From NCBI GenBank assembly GCA_017958225.1, contig JAGDDD010000003.1:8752-72751 (forward strand): a stretch of 64,000 nt of DNA. Reading direction: 5' to 3'. The notes under the pieces were generated by a model, which was not told the origin of the DNA, made no database searches, and saw only the letters and a list, made by a program, of their open reading frames with translations. Made by a program: the position numbers and the translations under genes. How positions within the stretch are numbered: position 1 is the first letter of the stretch; each line of letters starts with the position of its first letter. Source of the stretch: Alphaproteobacteria bacterium. Lineage in GTDB: Bacteria; Pseudomonadota; Alphaproteobacteria; CAAHEQ01; UBA3637. This document shows, one piece after another, positions 4,070 to 12,852 of this stretch.

Positions 4070-4086
4070 TTTTCCCTGATAATTTC

Positions 4087-4140
4087 AAATAGGCTCTTGA
4101 CTAGATGCAAAAAAGTGGCTAGTATAAGAGCCTATTTTTT
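4087..4140 (+). terminator. rho-independent terminator after the 2681 gene, with a thrS promoter candidate inside its loop
   Basis: The inverted repeat AAATAGGCTCTT...AAGAGCCTATTT is followed by a T-run of about 8. Inside it lie TTGACT (4097-4102), a 17-nt spacer, then TAGTAT (4120-4125). Confidence 0.55.
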
Positions 4141-4155
4141 TAACATAAGGATATT

Positions 4156-6084
4156 ATGATGATTAATATTAAATTGCCTGATGGCGCTGTCTTGGAAATG
4201 CAATCCGGCGTATGTGCGCTGGATGTGGCTCGTAAAATCAGTGAGCGTTTAGCCGCGGCGACTTTTGCCGCTTTGGTTAATGGAACATTGACGGATGCCA
4301 CAACGCCGATCACACAGGACGCGACCGTGACTTTGGTCACTGCCAAGCAGCCGGAAGGTTTGTCCGTGATGCGTCATAGTATCTCGCATATCATGGCCCA
4401 AGCAGTCCAAGAGCTGTTTCCGAATACGCAAGTGACCATCGGGCCCGTGATTGAAAACGGTTTTTATTATGACTTTGCGAAGGCTGAGCCTTTTGTGCCG
4501 GATGATTTGGCGAAAATTGAGCAGCGTATGCATGAAATTGTGCAACGCAATCTGCCGATTGTGCGTGAAGAGTGGCCGCGTCAAAAAGCTATCGATTACT
4601 TTACGCAAAAAGGCGAAAAATATAAAGTCGAAATCATCAATGATTTGCCTGCCGACGCCGTGATTTCAGTGTATAAGCAAGGCGATTATATCGACTTGTG
4701 TCGTGGTCCGCATTTGCCTTCGACCGGTTTGGCCGGCAAGGCCTTTAAGCTGATGAAAATTGCCGGTGCTTACTGGCGCGGCGATTCCAAAAACGCGATG
4801 TTGCAACGCATCTATGGTGTGGCCTTTGCGGATGAAAAAGATTTGAAAGCGCATTTGACGATGTTGGAAGAAGCCGCCAAACGCGACCATCGCAAAATCG
4901 GTAAAGATATGGACTTGTTCCATTTTGAGCCGGAATATGCGCCGGGTTCTGTGTTTTGGCATGACAAGGGCTATCGCGTGTATCGCAAGTTGATTGAGTA
5001 TATGCGCTTGCGTCAAGAGCAAAACGGGTATTTGGAAGTTTGCACGCCGGCGGTGATGGACAGATGCTTGTGGGAAACCTCGGGCCATTGGGAAAAATAT
5101 GGCGAACATAACTATTCCGGCAAAACCGAAGACGGAAAAGTGTTTTGTATCAAGCCGATGAACTGCCCGGGCGGTCTGTTGATTTACAAGCAGGGTATCA
5201 AATCTTATCGTGATTTGCCTTTGCGTTTAGCCGAGTTTGGTAAGGTGCATCGTTATGAAGCCAGTGGTGCCTTGATGGGCATCATGCGCGTGCGTGAATT
5301 TACACAAGATGATGCGCATATTTTCTGCACACAAGATCAGATGGAAGATGAATGCATCAGCACGTTGAAACTGATTTTGGACATTTATAAGGACTTTGGC
5401 TTTAAGGAGGTCCAAATTAAGTTATCGACTCGTCCCGAAAAGCGTATCGGCTCGGACGAAGTGTGGGATAAATCAGAAAAAGCGTTGGCTAATGCCTTGG
5501 AAAGAAACGGGTATGCCTATACACTCAATGTCGGGGAAGGTGCTTTCTACGGCCCGAAATTGGAGTTGATTTTGAAAGACGCTATCGGGCGTGAGTGGCA
5601 GTGCGGCACGATTCAAATGGATATGAACTTGCCGGAACGTTTTGATATCTCTTATATTGGAGAAGATGGCGAAAAGCATCGTCCGGTAATGTTGCACCGC
5701 GCTTTGTTTGGCTCAATTGAAAGATTCTTGGGTATTTTGTTGGAAGACACCGCCGGTCGTTTGCCGCTGTGGTTGTCGCCGGAGCAAGTCAAGGTGTTGC
5801 CGATTGCGTCCGATGTCAATGACTATGCCCATGAGGTGGCACAGGCTTTGAAAAAAGCCGGCTTGTCCGCCAGCGTTGATGACAGCAACGAAAAAATCAG
5901 TTATAAAATTCGTGAGCATTCTATCGCGAAAATACCTGTGTTGTTGGTTGTCGGTGCCAAAGAAAAAGAAACAAAGTCGGTCGCTGTGCGGCGTATCGGC
6001 GTTGAAAAACAAACAGTTATGCCGTTGGCAGAGTGCGTGAAATCTTTGCAAGAAGAAGCGCAAATGCCATCATCCGTTTTATAA
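4156..6084 (+). CDS. thrS: threonine--tRNA ligase
   Basis: 642 aa with a TGS-like N-terminus, class II motifs (FRVREFTQDDAHIF, GEGAFYGPK) and an anticodon-binding C-terminus. SD spacing (AAGGA at 4147) makes the second ATG at 4159 the more likely start. Confidence 0.97.
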   Translation: MMINIKLPDGAVLEMQSGVCALDVARKISERLAAATFAALVNGTLTDATTPITQDATVTLVTAKQPEGLSVMRHSISHIMAQAVQELFPNTQVTIGPVIENGFYYDFAKAEPFVPDDLAKIEQRMHEIVQRNLPIVREEWPRQKAIDYFTQKGEKYKVEIINDLPADAVISVYKQGDYIDLCRGPHLPSTGLAGKAFKLMKIAGAYWRGDSKNAMLQRIYGVAFADEKDLKAHLTMLEEAAKRDHRKIGKDMDLFHFEPEYAPGSVFWHDKGYRVYRKLIEYMRLRQEQNGYLEVCTPAVMDRCLWETSGHWEKYGEHNYSGKTEDGKVFCIKPMNCPGGLLIYKQGIKSYRDLPLRLAEFGKVHRYEASGALMGIMRVREFTQDDAHIFCTQDQMEDECISTLKLILDIYKDFGFKEVQIKLSTRPEKRIGSDEVWDKSEKALANALERNGYAYTLNVGEGAFYGPKLELILKDAIGREWQCGTIQMDMNLPERFDISYIGEDGEKHRPVMLHRALFGSIERFLGILLEDTAGRLPLWLSPEQVKVLPIASDVNDYAHEVAQALKKAGLSASVDDSNEKISYKIREHSIAKIPVLLVVGAKEKETKSVAVRRIGVEKQTVMPLAECVKSLQEEAQMPSSVL

Positions 6085-8892: not shown

Positions 8893-8920
8893 TTGACGAC
8901 ATACAAAAAATGATTAGAGT
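8893..8920 (+). promoter_or_regulatory. sigma70-like promoter candidate for nrdD
   Basis: TTGACG (8893-8898), a 16-nt spacer, then TAGAGT (8915-8920). This is a weak -10. An alternative -10, AAAAAT (8906-8911), would put the palindrome near -41.5. Confidence 0.3.
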
Positions 8921-8970
8921 AATGGATACAATTCATAGATATAGTATAAAAAAGACGAGGGAACCACTAA

Positions 8971-11028
8971 ATGTTGATAAAAGAGACTCCAGAACCGACA
9001 ACCGTTCAATTTGTTTTGACACGCGAAGGCGTGCAGATTCCTTTTGATAAGGAAAAGATTGTCAAAGCGATTGATAAAGCGGGCCAGGCGACCGGCGAAT
9101 TCGGGCTGGACGAATCGCGCACCATTGCCGATTCTGTGGTTAAAGTCTTGTCTCATCGCTTTAACGGGCAGCAGATTCCCACCGTCGAACAGATACAAGA
9201 TATAGTGGAGCAGGAGTTGATCTCTGCCAACTATTTCCAGACCGCGCGCGCGTATATCGTTTATCGTGAGAAACGTTCCGTCAATCGTCAGGACCGGCAA
9301 GCCCTGGTGGATGTAACTGCTTCAATCAACGAATACTTGGATCGGTCCGATTGGCGTGTGCGTGCCAATGCGAATCAGGGCTATTCTTTGGGTGGCTTGA
9401 TTTTGAACATTTCCGGCAAGATGATTGCGAACTATTGGCTCAATCATATTTACCCGCGTGAAGTCGGCGAAGCGCACCGCGTAGGCGATTATCATATTCA
9501 CGATTTGGATATGTTGTCCGGTTACTGCGCCGGTTGGTCTTTGAAGACCTTGTTGCGCGAAGGCTTTAACGGTGTGCCGAACAAGACAGAGTCCAAGCCG
9601 CCGCGTCATTTGGTGTCCGCTTTCAGCCAGATGGTCAATTTCTTGGGCACATTGCAAAATGAGTGGGCCGGCGCGCAGGCGTTTTCTTCTGCCGACACCT
9701 ATTTAGCCCCGTTTGTGCGCTTGGAAAAGTTGTCGTTTGACGAGGTCAAACAGGCGATGCAGTCCTTTATCTTTAACTTGAACGTGCCTTCACGTTGGGG
9801 AACGCAAACGCCCTTTACCAACTTGACATTTGACTGGACATGCCCGCCTGATTTGGCTAATGAGCATCCTGTGGTCGCCGGCGCAACGCAGTCCTTTACC
9901 TATGGCGAATTGCAAGACGAAATGGATATGATCAACCGTGCGTTCTTGGAAGTGATGGCCGAAGGCGATGCGAAGGGGCGTCCCTTTACTTTCCCGATCC
10001 CGACTTACAATATTACGCAAACTTTCCCGTGGGATTCCAAGAATATCGACCTGTTGTTTGAAATGACAGCCAAATATGGTTTGCCTTATTTTACCAACTA
10101 TATCAACACAGGCAAGAGCCCGTCGGAAACGCGTTCCATGTGCTGTCGTTTGAGCCTGGATTTGAACCAGTTAAAACGTCGTGGCGGTGGTTTGTTCGGC
10201 TCTGTGGAGCAGACCGGCTCGCTGGGCGTGGTGACCTTGAACTGCGCACGCTTGGGTTATTTGTATAAAGGCGACGAAAAAGCCTTGATGACGCGTTTGG
10301 ATGAGTTATTGAACTTGGCAAAAACGTCTTTGGAAATCAAACGCAAAACAATTCAAAAGCACCTGGACAACGGCTTGTTCCCCTATACGCGGCGTTATTT
10401 GGGCACTTTGCGCAATCACTTTTCAACGATCGGGGTCAATGGTATCAACGAAATGATTCGCAACTTTACCAACGATCAGCACAATATAACGGATAAGGAA
10501 GGGCAGGCGATGGCCTTGCGTTTCTTAGACCACATCCGTGAAAAAATGTTGCAGTTCCAAGAGGAAACGCAAAATATGTATAATTTGGAAGCGACGCCGG
10601 CCGAAGGCACAACTTATCGGTTTGCGCGCGAAGACCAAAAGCGGTATCCGGATATTATTCAGGCCGGCACGCATGAGGCCCCTTATTATACGAATTCAAG
10701 CCAACTGCCTGTGAATTATTCGGACGATCCGTATGAAGTGCTTGAATTGCAGGATCAACTGCAAGCCAAATATACGGGGGGAACGGTTCTGCACTTGTAT
10801 ATGAACGAGCGCATTTCCAGTGCGAAAGTTTGCAAGGAGTTTGTCAGAAAGGTTTTGGAAAACTATCATGTTCCTTACCTTTCTATTACCCCGGTATTTT
10901 CGATTTGTCCTGTCCACGGATATATTGCGGGCGCCTATAAGTTCTGCCCGAAATGCGACGAAGAGAAAATTGCCGAAAAGCAGAAAAAATTAGCACAAAC
11001 CACTAACAATGAAGGAGATAAAAAATGA
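8971..11028 (+). CDS. nrdD: anaerobic ribonucleoside-triphosphate reductase (class III), large chain lacking the glycyl-radical tail
   Basis: 685 aa with an N-terminal ATP-cone (VQFVLTREGVQIPFDKEKIVKAI...YIVYREKR). The catalytic core motifs include SMCCRL and NLEATPAEG. A C-terminal Zn-ribbon-like CPVHG...CPKC is present, but no RxxGY glycyl-radical motif. Confidence 0.93.
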   Translation: MLIKETPEPTTVQFVLTREGVQIPFDKEKIVKAIDKAGQATGEFGLDESRTIADSVVKVLSHRFNGQQIPTVEQIQDIVEQELISANYFQTARAYIVYREKRSVNRQDRQALVDVTASINEYLDRSDWRVRANANQGYSLGGLILNISGKMIANYWLNHIYPREVGEAHRVGDYHIHDLDMLSGYCAGWSLKTLLREGFNGVPNKTESKPPRHLVSAFSQMVNFLGTLQNEWAGAQAFSSADTYLAPFVRLEKLSFDEVKQAMQSFIFNLNVPSRWGTQTPFTNLTFDWTCPPDLANEHPVVAGATQSFTYGELQDEMDMINRAFLEVMAEGDAKGRPFTFPIPTYNITQTFPWDSKNIDLLFEMTAKYGLPYFTNYINTGKSPSETRSMCCRLSLDLNQLKRRGGGLFGSVEQTGSLGVVTLNCARLGYLYKGDEKALMTRLDELLNLAKTSLEIKRKTIQKHLDNGLFPYTRRYLGTLRNHFSTIGVNGINEMIRNFTNDQHNITDKEGQAMALRFLDHIREKMLQFQEETQNMYNLEATPAEGTTYRFAREDQKRYPDIIQAGTHEAPYYTNSSQLPVNYSDDPYEVLELQDQLQAKYTGGTVLHLYMNERISSAKVCKEFVRKVLENYHVPYLSITPVFSICPVHGYIAGAYKFCPKCDEEKIAEKQKKLAQTTNNEGDKK

Positions 11029-11216
11029 ATGCACAAATCGAAGTTTTACTCAGTGACGACGAACGCCAACCGGTTGAATGCTGGACACGCGTGATGGGTT
11101 ATTTCCGTCCCGTTTCTCACTTCAACAAAGGCAAACAAAGCGAATATGCCGAACGCGTGTGGTTCACAGAAGCCAAAGCCATGGCGGCGACATCTTGTGC
11201 ATGTGCGGCTAACTGA
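11025..11216 (+). CDS. stand-alone glycyl-radical domain of class III RNR (63 aa)
   Basis: It contains TRVMGYFRPVSHFNKGKQSEYAERVWF, the canonical NrdD C-terminal glycyl-radical motif. Its ATG overlaps the nrdD TGA (ATGA). AAGGAG (11012-11017) lies 7 nt upstream. Confidence 0.8.
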   Translation: MNAQIEVLLSDDERQPVECWTRVMGYFRPVSHFNKGKQSEYAERVWFTEAKAMAATSCACAAN

Positions 11217-11923
11217 TGAACATCGGCGGTTTTGTCCCTTTTACGACTATAGATTTTCCGGATAAAATCTCAGCCGTCGTTTTTTGCCAGGGGTGCCCTT
11301 TTCGGTGCCCCTTTTGTCACAACCACTCGTTACAGGTGGTGGGTGCGCCGGGCATGGAAAACTGGTCAGATATTTTACAGGTCTTATCAAAACGTCGTAA
11401 CCTGTTGGACGGTGTTGTGTTTAGCGGGGGAGAGCCTTTGTGGCAAGACGATATTTTGGATGCAGTCAAGCAGGTCAAGGATATGGGCTTTGCGGTGGCG
11501 CTTCACACCTCGGGCGTGCGACCGGATGTGTTAAAGACGCTGTTGCCTTTTGTCGATTGGATTGGACTGGATGTCAAAGCGCCTTTGGCCAAATATGCGC
11601 AGGCGTCCGGCACGCAACCGGCCTTTAAGGCGGGCGACAAAATGTGGGAATCGTTGGCGTTGATACAGCAAGCCGGCGTGCCTTTTGAAACGCGCACAAC
11701 CACCGATCCGCGCCTGTTGTCCAAAGAGGATATTTTGCAAATGGCCGAGCAGTTGAAAGAAAAGGGCGTGCAGACCTATGTCCTGCAGGAATATCGCCCG
11801 ATTTCCGATGGCAACGGCGAGCCGAGCAGCGCTCAAATTAGTGCTTTCTATACGGACAAGGCTTTCCTGGATAAATTACAAAATCTTTTCCCGCATTTTA
11901 GTGTGCGTCGTGCGCATGAATGA
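11216..11923 (+). CDS. nrdG: anaerobic ribonucleotide reductase activating protein (radical SAM)
   Basis: 235 aa with the CxxxCxxC cluster GCPFRCPFCHN and the GGEPL motif. It overlaps the upstream stop by 1 nt. Confidence 0.9.
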   Translation: MNIGGFVPFTTIDFPDKISAVVFCQGCPFRCPFCHNHSLQVVGAPGMENWSDILQVLSKRRNLLDGVVFSGGEPLWQDDILDAVKQVKDMGFAVALHTSGVRPDVLKTLLPFVDWIGLDVKAPLAKYAQASGTQPAFKAGDKMWESLALIQQAGVPFETRTTTDPRLLSKEDILQMAEQLKEKGVQTYVLQEYRPISDGNGEPSSAQISAFYTDKAFLDKLQNLFPHFSVRRAHE

Positions 11924-12001
11924 AAAAAGTTGTTGATTTAAACGTGCATGTATGATACAGATTTGTACAGGACAAAACTTAAACAAAAAGGAGAAAAAAC
12001 A

Positions 12002-12454
12002 ATGCTCAAAAAATCACAAATCGGTCGGTCAATGATTGAAATGTTAGGCGTTCTCGCCATTATCGGTGTGCTGTCCGTGGGCGGTTTAGCCGGTTATTCA
12101 CGGGCGATGCGCGCCAACAAAATGAATAATGCTTTGGATTACATGAATCGATGCTACACAGTTGTGCGTAGTATTGGTGATGGTATGTCTGCCTTAGATG
12201 CAAATGGTGCCCCGGCAGCGTCAGCAGGCAGCATTACCTGCTCTACTTTATTGGGCGAAACAGCCCCTCAAGGCAGTAATACGGATGTTTGTAAGCGCAG
12301 AGCTGGAGGCCGAACTGGATGTGAAATAGGTTGGACTTCAGAGGCAGATTTGAATGCGATGGCGAGTAAGGTGGGCATTAGCACCCTACAGGGCTCGTAT
12401 TTTTCGTTTGATTCAAATAATATGCAATGGAGTAACGAACATCTCGGCTTCTAA
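12002..12454 (+). CDS. type IV pilin-like protein (prepilin-type N-terminus)
   Basis: The ATG at 12002 follows AAAGGAG. The N-terminus is MLKKSQIG/RSMIEMLGVLAIIGVLSVGGLAGY: a short basic leader, Gly, Glu at +5, and a helix of about 20 hydrophobic residues. The C-terminal region has 4 Cys. Confidence 0.7.
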   Translation: MLKKSQIGRSMIEMLGVLAIIGVLSVGGLAGYSRAMRANKMNNALDYMNRCYTVVRSIGDGMSALDANGAPAASAGSITCSTLLGETAPQGSNTDVCKRRAGGRTGCEIGWTSEADLNAMASKVGISTLQGSYFSFDSNNMQWSNEHLGF

Positions 12455-12651: not shown

Positions 12652-12726
12652 TGGCTCTGGCGGTAGGATTCGAACCTACGACCGATCGGTTAACAGCCGA
12701 TAGCTCTACCGCTGAGCTACGCCAGA
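12652..12726 (-). tRNA. tRNA-Asn (GTT)
   Basis: The reverse complement folds as a cloverleaf. The acceptor stem is TCTGGCG/CGCCAGA, the anticodon loop is CTGTTAA, the T-arm is GTAGGTTCGAATCCTAC, and CCA is encoded. Confidence 0.93.
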
Positions 12727-12777: not shown

Positions 12778-12852
12778 TGGAGGCCGGTACCGGAATTGAA
12801 CCGATATAAAAGGATTTGCAGTCCTCTGCATAAGCCATTCTGCCAACCGGCC
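12778..12852 (-). tRNA. tRNA-Cys (GCA)
   Basis: On the reverse complement the acceptor stem is GGCCGGT/ACCGGCC, the anticodon stem-loop is GAGGA-CTGCAAA-TCCTT, the T-loop is GGTTCAATTCC, and CCA is encoded. Confidence 0.93.

What the first reader, a model, noticed from the sequence alone, without database searches (positions are those of the whole stretch)
10890..11216. Class III ribonucleotide reductase split in two: the glycyl-radical domain is a separate 63-aa ORF with its own Shine-Dalgarno sequence
NrdD ends after its Zn-ribbon-like CPVHG...CPKC with a Lys/Glu-rich tail and a TGA at 11026-11028.

The motif that normally closes NrdD (TRVMGYFRPVSHFNKGKQSEYAERVWF, the glycyl-radical loop) is in the next ORF, in the -1 frame. 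It starts at ATG 11025 (ATGA overlap).

A perfect AAGGAG sits 7 nt upstream (11012-11017), which argues for real translational coupling.

The junction also lies in an A6 run (11020-11025), so a single-base indel would fuse the frames.

If genuine, the radical-bearing domain is a replaceable subunit. This is conceptually like the GrcA/YfiD spare part for pyruvate formate-lyase, which is an inference.
Basis: partly seen in the sequence, partly recalled or inferred. Interest (0 to 1): 0.6.

Follow-up and report, generated by a model that had tools for sequence, protein, structure and literature searches.

The report
Two-piece anaerobic ribonucleotide reductase (split NrdD)
This gut alphaproteobacterium makes its only ribonucleotide reductase, the oxygen-sensitive class III enzyme, from two genes: a 685-residue body and a separate 63-residue protein that carries the radical glycine. 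The layout is real, old and common in bacteria, yet I found no paper that describes it.

Summary
The nrdD core (8971-11028) ends after its zinc ribbon. A 63-codon ORF (11025-11216) holds the glycyl-radical loop TRVMGYFRP. It has AAGGAG 7 nt upstream and an ATGA overlap. nrdG follows with a TGATG overlap.

It is not an indel artefact.
- Contigs from four runs in three studies cross the A6 run unchanged.
- Fifteen related genomes and 63 loci from cultured and uncultured bacteria keep the same two ORFs.
- These loci have their own Shine-Dalgarno sites, spacers from -56 to +298 nt and all three frame offsets in equal numbers.

The break lies in a linker that is already variable in one-piece homologues (11-54 residues; 42 here). 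The two ORFs together keep about 96% of the family's invariant residues, and no class I or II RNR exists in this family.

About a quarter of NrdD-bearing Pseudomonadota sampled are split, as are all 28 in one Pseudomonas-type genus. RefSeq names the small ORFs, but no paper I could search describes a split NrdD.

Sister genera carry extra, selected copies away from nrdD, some behind NrdR boxes. The GrcA-like spare-part idea remains untested. Verdict: a genuine two-subunit class III RNR.

The parts
8893..8920 (+). Promoter-like site (TTGACG, 16 nt, TAGAGT) upstream of nrdD
   Evidence: Consensus scan, 9 of 12 positions. This is a pattern match only.
8932..8947 (+). Weak NrdR-box-like site, TTCATAGATATAGTAT
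   Evidence: It scores 4.9 against a weight matrix built from strong boxes at the same position in 11 relatives (training scores 16-22). The background 95th percentile is 3.7 and the 99th is 14.9. nrdR is present in the genome.
8971..11028 (+). nrdD core subunit, 685 aa. It holds an ATP-cone (residues 14-103), the alpha/beta barrel with the finger-loop MCCRL (residues 390-394, nt 10138-10152) and NLEATPAEG (nt 10582-10608). The CxxH...CxxC zinc ribbon is at nt 10906-10956, followed by a 23-residue tail at nt 10957-11025. There is no glycyl-radical loop.
   Evidence: Pfam NRDD positions 2-531 of 562, E 3.9e-177. NCBIfam NF006126 scores 1097.9 bits. It keeps 203 of the 211 family-invariant columns it covers.
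11012..11017 (+). Shine-Dalgarno AAGGAG of the small ORF, 7 nt before its ATG
   Evidence: Read directly. A GGAG-type SD sits a few nt before the ATG in nearly all of 15 related junctions.
11020..11028 (+). Junction: A6 run (11020-11025), ATG 11025-11027 and TGA 11026-11028 (ATGA overlap)
   Evidence: Read. Contigs of 4 runs cross it unchanged. The same A-rich SD-to-ATG spacer is present in relative L002, where the core has already ended 28 nt upstream.
11025..11216 (+). Small radical subunit, 63 aa. It holds the glycyl-radical loop ERQPVECWTRVMGYFRPV (nt 11061-11114, Gly25 at 11097-11099) and a C-terminal CAC (nt 11196-11204).
   Evidence: Pfam NRDD positions 530-561 of 562, E 1.5e-8. There are 476 small homologues. 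Fifteen residues are invariant in 27 copies. pN/pS is 0.20 with saturated pS.
11216..11923 (+). nrdG, the radical-SAM activase (235 aa). Its ATG overlaps the small ORF's TGA.
   Evidence: TIGR02495 NrdG2, E 1.9e-62, plus Pfam Radical_SAM.

Best explanation
The window holds a three-gene operon: nrdD-core, a small radical-subunit gene and nrdG. It encodes a class III (anaerobic) ribonucleotide reductase built from two polypeptides.

The 685-residue core carries the ATP-cone, the catalytic barrel with the thiyl-radical cysteine loop (MCCRL) and the zinc ribbon. The 63-residue protein carries only the buried loop with the radical glycine (Gly25) and the tail that follows it. It is translated from its own SD and ATG, coupled to termination of the core (ATGA).

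Inferred steps:
- NrdG uses S-adenosylmethionine to abstract a hydrogen from Gly25 of the small protein.
- The small protein has no fold of its own and inserts its hairpin into the core barrel next to the MCCRL loop.
- There the glycyl radical generates the thiyl radical that starts nucleotide reduction, as in one-piece NrdD.

The gene was cut in a naturally flexible, variable linker between the zinc ribbon and the radical loop. This cut has arisen or reverted several times in this NrdD subfamily.
For: **Shown**

1. The ORFs, SD, overlap and motifs are as described. The junction is unchanged in contigs of 4 runs.
2. In 15 junctions from genomes related to this one, the core stops at TAA, TAG or TGA and the small ORF starts -4 to +124 nt later, in nearly every case behind a GGAG-type SD.
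3. A scan of about 186,000 species genomes found 586 related stretches. The best 80 were 63 core+small(+nrdG) loci and 17 lone copies, with none fused. Frame offsets were 23/21/19, so no single recoding event can explain them.
4. These loci include cultured Pseudomonas, Acidithiobacillus, Ectothiorhodospira, Afifella, Devosia, Hydrogenophaga and Roseateles. RefSeq lists their 48-69-aa ORFs as 'anaerobic ribonucleoside-triphosphate reductase'.
5. Core and small ORF keep 203 of 211 and 15 of 17 of the 225 columns that are at least 97% invariant in 64 one-piece homologues, and none is left uncovered. The linker length falls within the one-piece range.
6. The 37-codon core has pN 0.14 against pS 0.71.
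7. None of 16 genomes of this family has a class I or II RNR, and 15 of 16 have exactly this NrdD.
8. AlphaFold2 modelled a relative's core and small ORF read through its single in-frame TAA. The small part's residues 701-740 scored pLDDT 78-92 as a beta-hairpin around the glycine, and the junction scored 68. The fold matches solved class III RNRs. The window's small ORF alone gave pLDDT 58.5 with the Gly loop below 50.
9. On the tree of cores, the fused/split state changes at least 10 times, at least 6 of them forced by well-supported branches.
10. Prevalence: 9 of 33 NrdD-bearing Pseudomonadota genomes are split, as are 28 of 28 in the genus of L102.
Against: - There is no protein-level or activity evidence for any split NrdD, here or in any paper I could search. 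No RNA run held this locus.
- The docking in the AlphaFold model is driven by an alignment of natural one-piece homologues and uses a relative, not the window's own pair.
- One family member (G011, 98% complete) has no RNR of any class, so the argument 'sole RNR, hence functional' is strong but not absolute.
- In this genome alone, the AAA AAA TGA junction could allow some -1 slippage to a fused chain.
- Only assembled contigs, not raw reads, were checked across the A6 run.
Confidence: 0.87

Rival explanations
1. The small protein is an exchangeable, disposable 'radical cartridge' with an adaptive role. After oxygen cleaves it at Gly25, the intact core is reloaded with a fresh or alternative copy. 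The extra copies in sister genera would then be spares or condition-specific cartridges, working like GrcA does for pyruvate formate-lyase.
For: - 17 of 23 relatives of this family that have a match carry 2-3 copies. The extra copies lie away from nrdD and nrdG.
- They are under purifying selection: orphan pN/pS is 0.31. Two orphan/linked pairs show pN 0 with pS 0.15-0.23.
- Several sit next to RNase H at a conserved position.
- Four others have strong NrdR boxes upstream, some in tandem about 31 bp apart (scores 17.8-21.6 against a background 99th percentile of 14.9).
- Reviews state that spare parts are known only for formate lyases and may exist for other glycyl radical enzymes (PMC8683613, PMC13450708).
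Against: - This genome has only the one linked copy, so here the small protein is simply the regular subunit.
- In a phylum-wide sample, extra copies were rare: 1 of 9 split genomes and 1 of 24 one-piece genomes.
- Orphans are closer to their own genome's linked copy than to every other linked copy in only 5 of 10 cases.
That note is an unchecked lead.
- Repeated fission and fusion in a flexible linker fits neutral gene fission equally well.
Confidence: 0.12
2. The active enzyme in this genome is a fused full-length NrdD. It would be made by -1 ribosomal slippage of tRNA-Lys on AAA AAA before the TGA, or by transcriptional slippage on A6, with the upstream AAGGAG acting as a frameshift stimulator as in dnaX.
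For: - A -1 shift at GAT AAA AAA TGA would read ...GDKK-MNAQ... and join the two ORFs exactly.
- An SD-like element upstream of a slippery A-run is a known stimulator of -1 frameshifting (established knowledge of dnaX).
Against: - The arrangement is specific to this species. The closest relative has the same GGAGATAAAAAATG, but its core ORF already ended at a TAA 28 nt upstream.
- Across 63 loci the frame offset is 0, +1 or +2 in equal numbers, and spacers run from -56 to +298 nt.
- Lone copies elsewhere show the small ORF is translated on its own.
- A6 is short for transcriptional slippage.
- T AAA AAA is not a canonical X XXY YYZ site in the zero frame.
Confidence: 0.04
3. The split is an assembly or sequencing indel in the A6 homopolymer, or a strain-specific pseudogenising frameshift of a one-piece nrdD.
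For: The junction lies in a homopolymer, and one added or lost base would fuse the frames.
Against: - Contigs of four runs from three studies show A6 with no indel.
- Near-identical cores of 685-687 aa ending ...GDKK come from other assemblies.
- All relatives are split, with different junctions.
- The small ORF has a start codon, an SD and strong purifying selection.
- This is the only RNR in the genome.
Confidence: 0.01

Closest known systems
One-piece class III ribonucleotide reductase NrdD with activase NrdG. The nearest is subfamily NF006126/PRK08270, which has a double-cysteine finger loop. Solved examples are T. maritima 4COI/4U3E, P. copri 8P23, S. thermophilus 9D3X and phage T4 1H78.
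   Same: It has the same ATP-cone, barrel, finger-loop cysteines, zinc ribbon, RVxGY radical loop and adjacent radical-SAM activase. The sequence scores 1097.9 bits to NF006126. The model's fold matches these structures with TM 0.64-0.76 normalised to the target.
   Different: The radical loop and C-terminal tail are on a separate 63-residue polypeptide. The cut lies in the variable linker after the zinc ribbon. The zinc ribbon is CxxH...CxxC rather than four cysteines, as in the whole subfamily.
GrcA/YfiD of E. coli and Y06I of phage T4 (autonomous glycyl radical cofactors, 'spare parts' for pyruvate formate-lyase)
   Same: It is a small free-standing protein that consists essentially of a glycyl-radical loop. 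It is presumably activated by the cognate radical-SAM activase and docks into a large barrel that lacks a working radical loop.
   Different: - GrcA is homologous to the PFL C-terminus (Pfam Gly_radical). This ORF matches only NRDD.
- GrcA backs up an enzyme that has its own radical domain, whereas here the core never has one.
- GrcA is unlinked and stress-induced, whereas this ORF is translationally coupled between nrdD and nrdG.
- GrcA's rescue activity is shown biochemically (PMC8683613). Nothing has been shown here.
Split class II ribonucleotide reductase NrdJa/NrdJb of Pseudomonas aeruginosa (Crona et al. 2015, cited in PMC4860495 and PMC9669993)
   Same: It is an RNR catalytic chain encoded as two adjacent genes. 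The C-terminal functional module is on the second polypeptide, and the enzyme is active as a complex.
   Different: [quoted passage not shown] Here the second piece is a peptide of about 7 kDa that bears the radical cofactor itself. PMC9669993 treats split domains as peculiar to class II.

Membership tests
Class III RNR catalytic subunit NrdD (Pfam PF13597; NCBIfam NF006126/TIGR02487) | Barrel core with the conserved finger-loop cysteine(s) and family-invariant residues | tested here: met
   PF13597 matches positions 2-531 of 562 at E 3.9e-177. NF006126 scores 1097.9 bits against a cut-off of 548. MCCRL is present, and 203 of 211 invariant columns are kept.
Class III RNR catalytic subunit NrdD (Pfam PF13597; NCBIfam NF006126/TIGR02487) | C-terminal glycyl-radical loop (RVxGY) on the same polypeptide as the barrel | tested here: not met
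   The core ORF ends at profile position 531. Positions 530-561 lie in the next ORF, in another frame. Taken together, the two ORFs do carry the feature.
Class III RNR catalytic subunit NrdD (Pfam PF13597; NCBIfam NF006126/TIGR02487) | Zinc ribbon before the radical loop | tested here: met
   CPVH...CPKC lies at residues 646-662. The same CxxH...CxxC columns are invariant or nearly invariant in 64 one-piece homologues. Metal binding itself was not tested.
Class III RNR catalytic subunit NrdD (Pfam PF13597; NCBIfam NF006126/TIGR02487) | Cognate radical-SAM activase NrdG encoded alongside | tested here: met
   TIGR02495 NrdG2 matches at E 1.9e-62, above its cut-off, and the gene overlaps the small ORF's stop codon.
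Class III RNR catalytic subunit NrdD (Pfam PF13597; NCBIfam NF006126/TIGR02487) | Glycyl radical formation and NTP reduction | not testable with these tools
   This needs anaerobic reconstitution, EPR and an activity assay.
[quoted passage not shown] | Small free-standing protein made essentially of a glycyl-radical loop | tested here: met
   It is a 63-aa ORF with its own SD and ATG. There are 476 small homologues.
[quoted passage not shown] | Homology to the PFL-type glycyl radical domain | tested here: not met
   Only NRDD-type models match at E <= 0.01. There was no Gly_radical or GrcA model hit in Pfam or NCBIfam.
[quoted passage not shown] | The partner enzyme has its own radical domain, and the small protein replaces it only after oxygen cleavage | tested here: not met
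   The core has no radical loop at all, and this genome has no second copy.
[quoted passage not shown] | Restores activity to the damaged enzyme | not testable with these tools
   This needs biochemical work.
Programmed -1 frameshift genes (dnaX type) | Slippery site conserved among relatives, with the downstream ORF lacking its own initiation signals | tested here: not met
   Relatives have spacers of -56 to +298 nt, all three frame offsets and their own SD and ATG.

The most novel reading that the evidence does not exclude
Class III RNR exists widely as a two-component enzyme whose glycyl radical sits on a detachable protein of about 7 kDa that can be exchanged on the core. Oxygen would then destroy only the small piece, and the 78-kDa core would be reloaded. 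The extra, selected copies in this bacterium's sister genera would be spare or condition-specific cartridges. Some of these lie behind NrdR operators, some next to RNase H and one in a prophage. This would be the first spare-part system for a glycyl radical enzyme other than pyruvate formate-lyase.
Probability: 0.12. Interest if true: 0.85.

Novelty: new variant of a known kind. Interest (0 to 1): 0.62.

Why it matters
Glycyl radical enzymes are taught as single chains that carry their radical on a C-terminal domain. The only known free-standing radical module is GrcA/YfiD, for pyruvate formate-lyase. A 2021 JBC paper and a 2026 review both leave open whether other glycyl radical enzymes have such parts.

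Here the radical loop of the anaerobic ribonucleotide reductase is a separate gene product. It belongs to the only RNR of the organism. The same layout occurs in roughly a quarter of NrdD-bearing Pseudomonadota sampled, including cultured and genetically tractable genera.

This offers:
1. A natural system to ask whether the activase works on a free or a docked radical loop.
2. A direct test of whether an oxygen-damaged class III RNR can be repaired by swapping a 7-kDa piece.
3. A practical warning. Automated annotation and RNR phylogenies that take the roughly 680-aa ORF as 'NrdD' miss the cofactor-bearing subunit. Anyone expressing such an nrdD with nrdG alone would get a dead enzyme.

Tried and rejected
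- **Indel or pseudogene.** Rejected on contigs of four runs and on the conserved split.
- **-1 recoding as the general mechanism.** Rejected on the uniform frame offsets and the A-rich spacer in relatives whose core ends earlier.
- **'Inserted linker'.** Rejected, because one-piece homologues have 11-54 residues there.
- **Membership of the GrcA family.** Rejected, with no PFL-type domain hit.
- **RNA evidence.** Only three metatranscriptome runs were offered, and none held the locus.
- **Canonical NrdR box in the window.** A search allowing up to 3 mismatches found only a chance-level hit inside nrdD. A matrix built from relatives' boxes gives a weak site at 8932-8947.
- **Phage records.** There was one weak hit, and PHROGs gave only weak matches to phrog_4132 and to the NrdD family.
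- **Literature.** Six full-text searches and six papers read gave no description of a split NrdD. The 1999 J Bacteriol paper on the Alcaligenes eutrophus megaplasmid nrdDG is not held, so older subscription literature is unchecked.
- **P. aeruginosa.** I could not name P. aeruginosa among the unnamed genus genomes, so whether PAO1 nrdD is split was not established here.
Full report
**1. What is in the sequence**

Three tightly packed ORFs lie on the + strand.
- The first runs 8971..11028 (685 aa).
- The second runs 11025..11216 (63 aa).
- The third runs 11216..11923 (235 aa).

The first matches Pfam NRDD over profile positions 2-531 of 562 (E 3.9e-177) and has an ATP-cone. It scores 1097.9 bits to NCBIfam NF006126, 'ribonucleoside triphosphate reductase'. 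The second matches only the last 32 positions of the NRDD profile (530-561, E 1.5e-8). The third is NrdG (TIGR02495, E 1.9e-62).

The core ends with the zinc ribbon CPVH...CPKC and a 23-residue tail. The small ORF holds ERQPVECWTRVMGYFRPV, with the radical glycine as residue 25.

The small ORF's stop also overlaps the nrdG start (TGATG).

**2. It is not an error**

Assembled contigs from four public gut-metagenome runs in three studies cross 11015-11030 with no insertion or deletion. Only contigs were available, not raw reads.

The split is also conserved.
- In the window's own family of small-genome gut alphaproteobacteria, 23 of 24 other genomes hold the small ORF in a short open frame.
- In 15 junctions I read, the core stops at TAA, TAG or TGA. 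The small ORF starts -4 to +124 nt later, in nearly every case behind a GGAG-type Shine-Dalgarno.
- The closest relative has the same GGAGATAAAAAATG, but its core ends at a TAA 28 nt upstream.

So the A-run is just the A-rich SD-to-ATG spacer. The window's ATGA overlap is a derived state in which the core's stop was lost and the former spacer is translated.

**3. How widespread it is**

A pattern scan of one genome per species (about 186,000) found 586 related stretches. The best 80 were 63 core+small(+nrdG) loci and 17 lone small ORFs, with none fused.

The frame offset between core and small ORF is 0, +1 or +2 in 21, 23 and 19 loci, and spacers run from -56 to +298 nt. This excludes any single recoding mechanism.

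The loci include cultured Pseudomonas, Acidithiobacillus, Ectothiorhodospira, Afifella, Devosia, Hydrogenophaga, Acidovorax, Ottowia, Roseateles and Pusillimonas. They also include members of Actinomycetota, Acidobacteriota and Verrucomicrobiota. RefSeq already lists the 48-69-aa products as 'anaerobic ribonucleoside-triphosphate reductase'.

In an even sample of 301 Pseudomonadota genomes, 33 have NrdD: 24 are one-piece and 9 are split. In the genus of the Pseudomonas locus, all 28 NrdD-bearing genomes of 101 are split.

**4. Where the cut lies**

One-piece homologues of the same subfamily exist. Between the zinc ribbon and the W of WTRVMGY they have a low-complexity linker of 11-54 residues (median 28). 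The window has 23+19=42. The cut therefore falls in a pre-existing variable tether, and nothing was inserted.

Of 225 columns at least 97% invariant among 64 one-piece homologues, the core covers 211 and keeps 203. The small ORF covers the rest and keeps 15 of 17. No invariant column is missing.

On a tree of the core region, the fused/split state needs at least 10 changes, at least 6 of them forced by well-supported branches. One-piece and two-piece forms have therefore interconverted repeatedly.

**5. Evidence that the two-piece enzyme works**

- None of the 16 genomes of this family, including the window's, has a class I or II RNR large subunit. Nine of ten genomes from other families of the class do. 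Fifteen of the 16 have exactly one NrdD core. The caveat is G011, which is 98% complete and has no RNR at all.
- The 37-codon core of the small ORF has pN 0.14 against a saturated pS of 0.71 among linked copies.
- I read a relative's core and small ORF through its single in-frame TAA (L035) and modelled it with an alignment of natural one-piece homologues. AlphaFold2 gave pLDDT 84.2 and pTM 0.81. The small part folded as a beta-hairpin around the glycine at pLDDT 78-92, and the junction was the least confident C-terminal block at 68.
- The model superposes on solved class III RNRs.
- The window's small ORF modelled alone is poorly defined, with pLDDT 58.5, pTM 0.28 and the Gly loop below 50. 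This fits a peptide that folds only when inserted into the barrel.

These models are predictions and lean on the one-piece alignment.

**6. Regulation**

nrdR is present in the genome. Relatives have near-consensus NrdR boxes 20-40 nt before nrdD. The window has only a weak one at 8932-8947, downstream of a promoter-like site at 8893-8920.

**7. Extra copies in sister genera**

Of the 23 relatives with a match, 17 carry two or three small ORFs. The extra ones lie away from nrdD and nrdG.
- Several sit directly upstream of RNase H, or one HTH gene away from it.
- One lies in a prophage head module between a Clp-type protease and an M15 peptidase, near a lambda-type portal gene.
- Four have strong NrdR boxes upstream, some in tandem about 31 bp apart.

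These copies are under purifying selection, with pN/pS 0.31. Two orphan/linked pairs show pN 0 at pS 0.15-0.23. The window's own genome (85% complete) has only the linked copy, and its rnhA has no such neighbour.

**8. Comparison with what is known**

The enzyme is a class III RNR of the NF006126 subfamily in every tested respect except that the radical loop is on a second polypeptide.

It works like GrcA/YfiD only in being a free-standing radical loop. It is not a member of that family, because it has no PFL-type domain and the partner has no radical domain of its own.

The nearest precedent for a split RNR is class II NrdJa/NrdJb of P. aeruginosa.

[quoted passage not shown] A 2022 survey of RNR extensions treats split domains as peculiar to class II.

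My full-text searches found no description of a split NrdD. Older subscription papers could not be searched.

**9. Earlier notes of this scan**

A word search returned 434 notes on the same kind of split in at least 422 genomes. It also returned a later check that upheld the observation but priced the spare-part reading at 6 in 100.

I treated these as leads. I re-derived three points independently here: the conservation, the presence in cultured proteobacteria and the NrdR boxes before lone copies. I kept my odds for the exchangeable-cartridge reading low (0.12).

**10. Verdict**

This is a genuine, conserved two-subunit class III ribonucleotide reductase (confidence 0.87). The GrcA-like replacement idea is open and testable.

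Noticed in passing
G255:C2:369399-369623 (genome search): This genome has a one-piece NrdD (profile positions 5-562). It also has a separate 103-aa open frame matching NRDD positions 498-562, which cover the zinc ribbon and the radical loop. That is closer to a true GrcA-style spare than the window's case.
   Followed up: no
Small ORF residues 16-20 (window 11070-11084) and alignment A1/A2: The one conserved cysteine before the radical loop sits at RQPCEVW in most lineages and in all one-piece homologues. In this family's linked copies it sits two residues later, at RQPVECW, and L035 and L037 have both (TPCECW). Its role is unknown. It could be a contact with the CxxH...CxxC zinc site of the core.
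   Followed up: partly
Window 11196-11204 and the C-termini of small ORFs in L002-L029: Most nrdD-linked small ORFs of this family end with a CxC motif (CAC, CHC, CKC, CSC, CPC, CEC). Several orphan copies and most one-piece homologues lack it. It might be a redox or metal site on the tail. This was not examined.
   Followed up: no
P0126 (736 aa, Chlamydiae MAG): This one-piece NrdD has the radical motif duplicated in tandem (...DKDRQECEGWTRVMGYLIPDKDRQECEVWTRVMGYFRPV...). It is either a real duplication or an assembly artefact.
   Followed up: no
G011 (same family, 98% complete): No RNR of class I, II or III and no small radical ORF was found. Either the locus was missed in binning or the organism depends on deoxynucleoside salvage.
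   Followed up: no
G005:C29:727-3850: A second, divergent NrdD-like gene lies in two pieces (profile positions 8-212 with two stops, and 222-560). It occurs in a genome that also has the split NrdD and two orphan small ORFs.
   Followed up: no
L027 (G003:C28), small ORF at about 4072-4179 on the - strand: A divergent copy of the small radical ORF (DRQKTQVWTRVMGYMRN) sits inside a prophage-like head module, between a Clp-type prohead protease and an M15 peptidase and near a lambda-family portal gene. It weakly matches phrog_4132, a phage family of unknown function.
   Followed up: partly
Window 11948-12454 (+), 12652-12726 and 12778-12852 (-): Directly after nrdG lies a 168-aa ORF with a type IV pilin-like N-terminus (...GRSMIEMLGVLAIIGVLSVGG...). 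It is followed by tRNA-Asn(GTT) and tRNA-Cys(GCA) on the opposite strand. Similar pilin-like N-termini appear next to orphan copies in L013 and L019.
   Followed up: no
Window 11060-11110, depth in run X4: Contig depth rises from about 10 to 60-104 over the ERQPVECWTRVMGYF codons, with several different loose continuations. Many related copies or organisms in the bovine gut share this 50-nt core.
   Followed up: no
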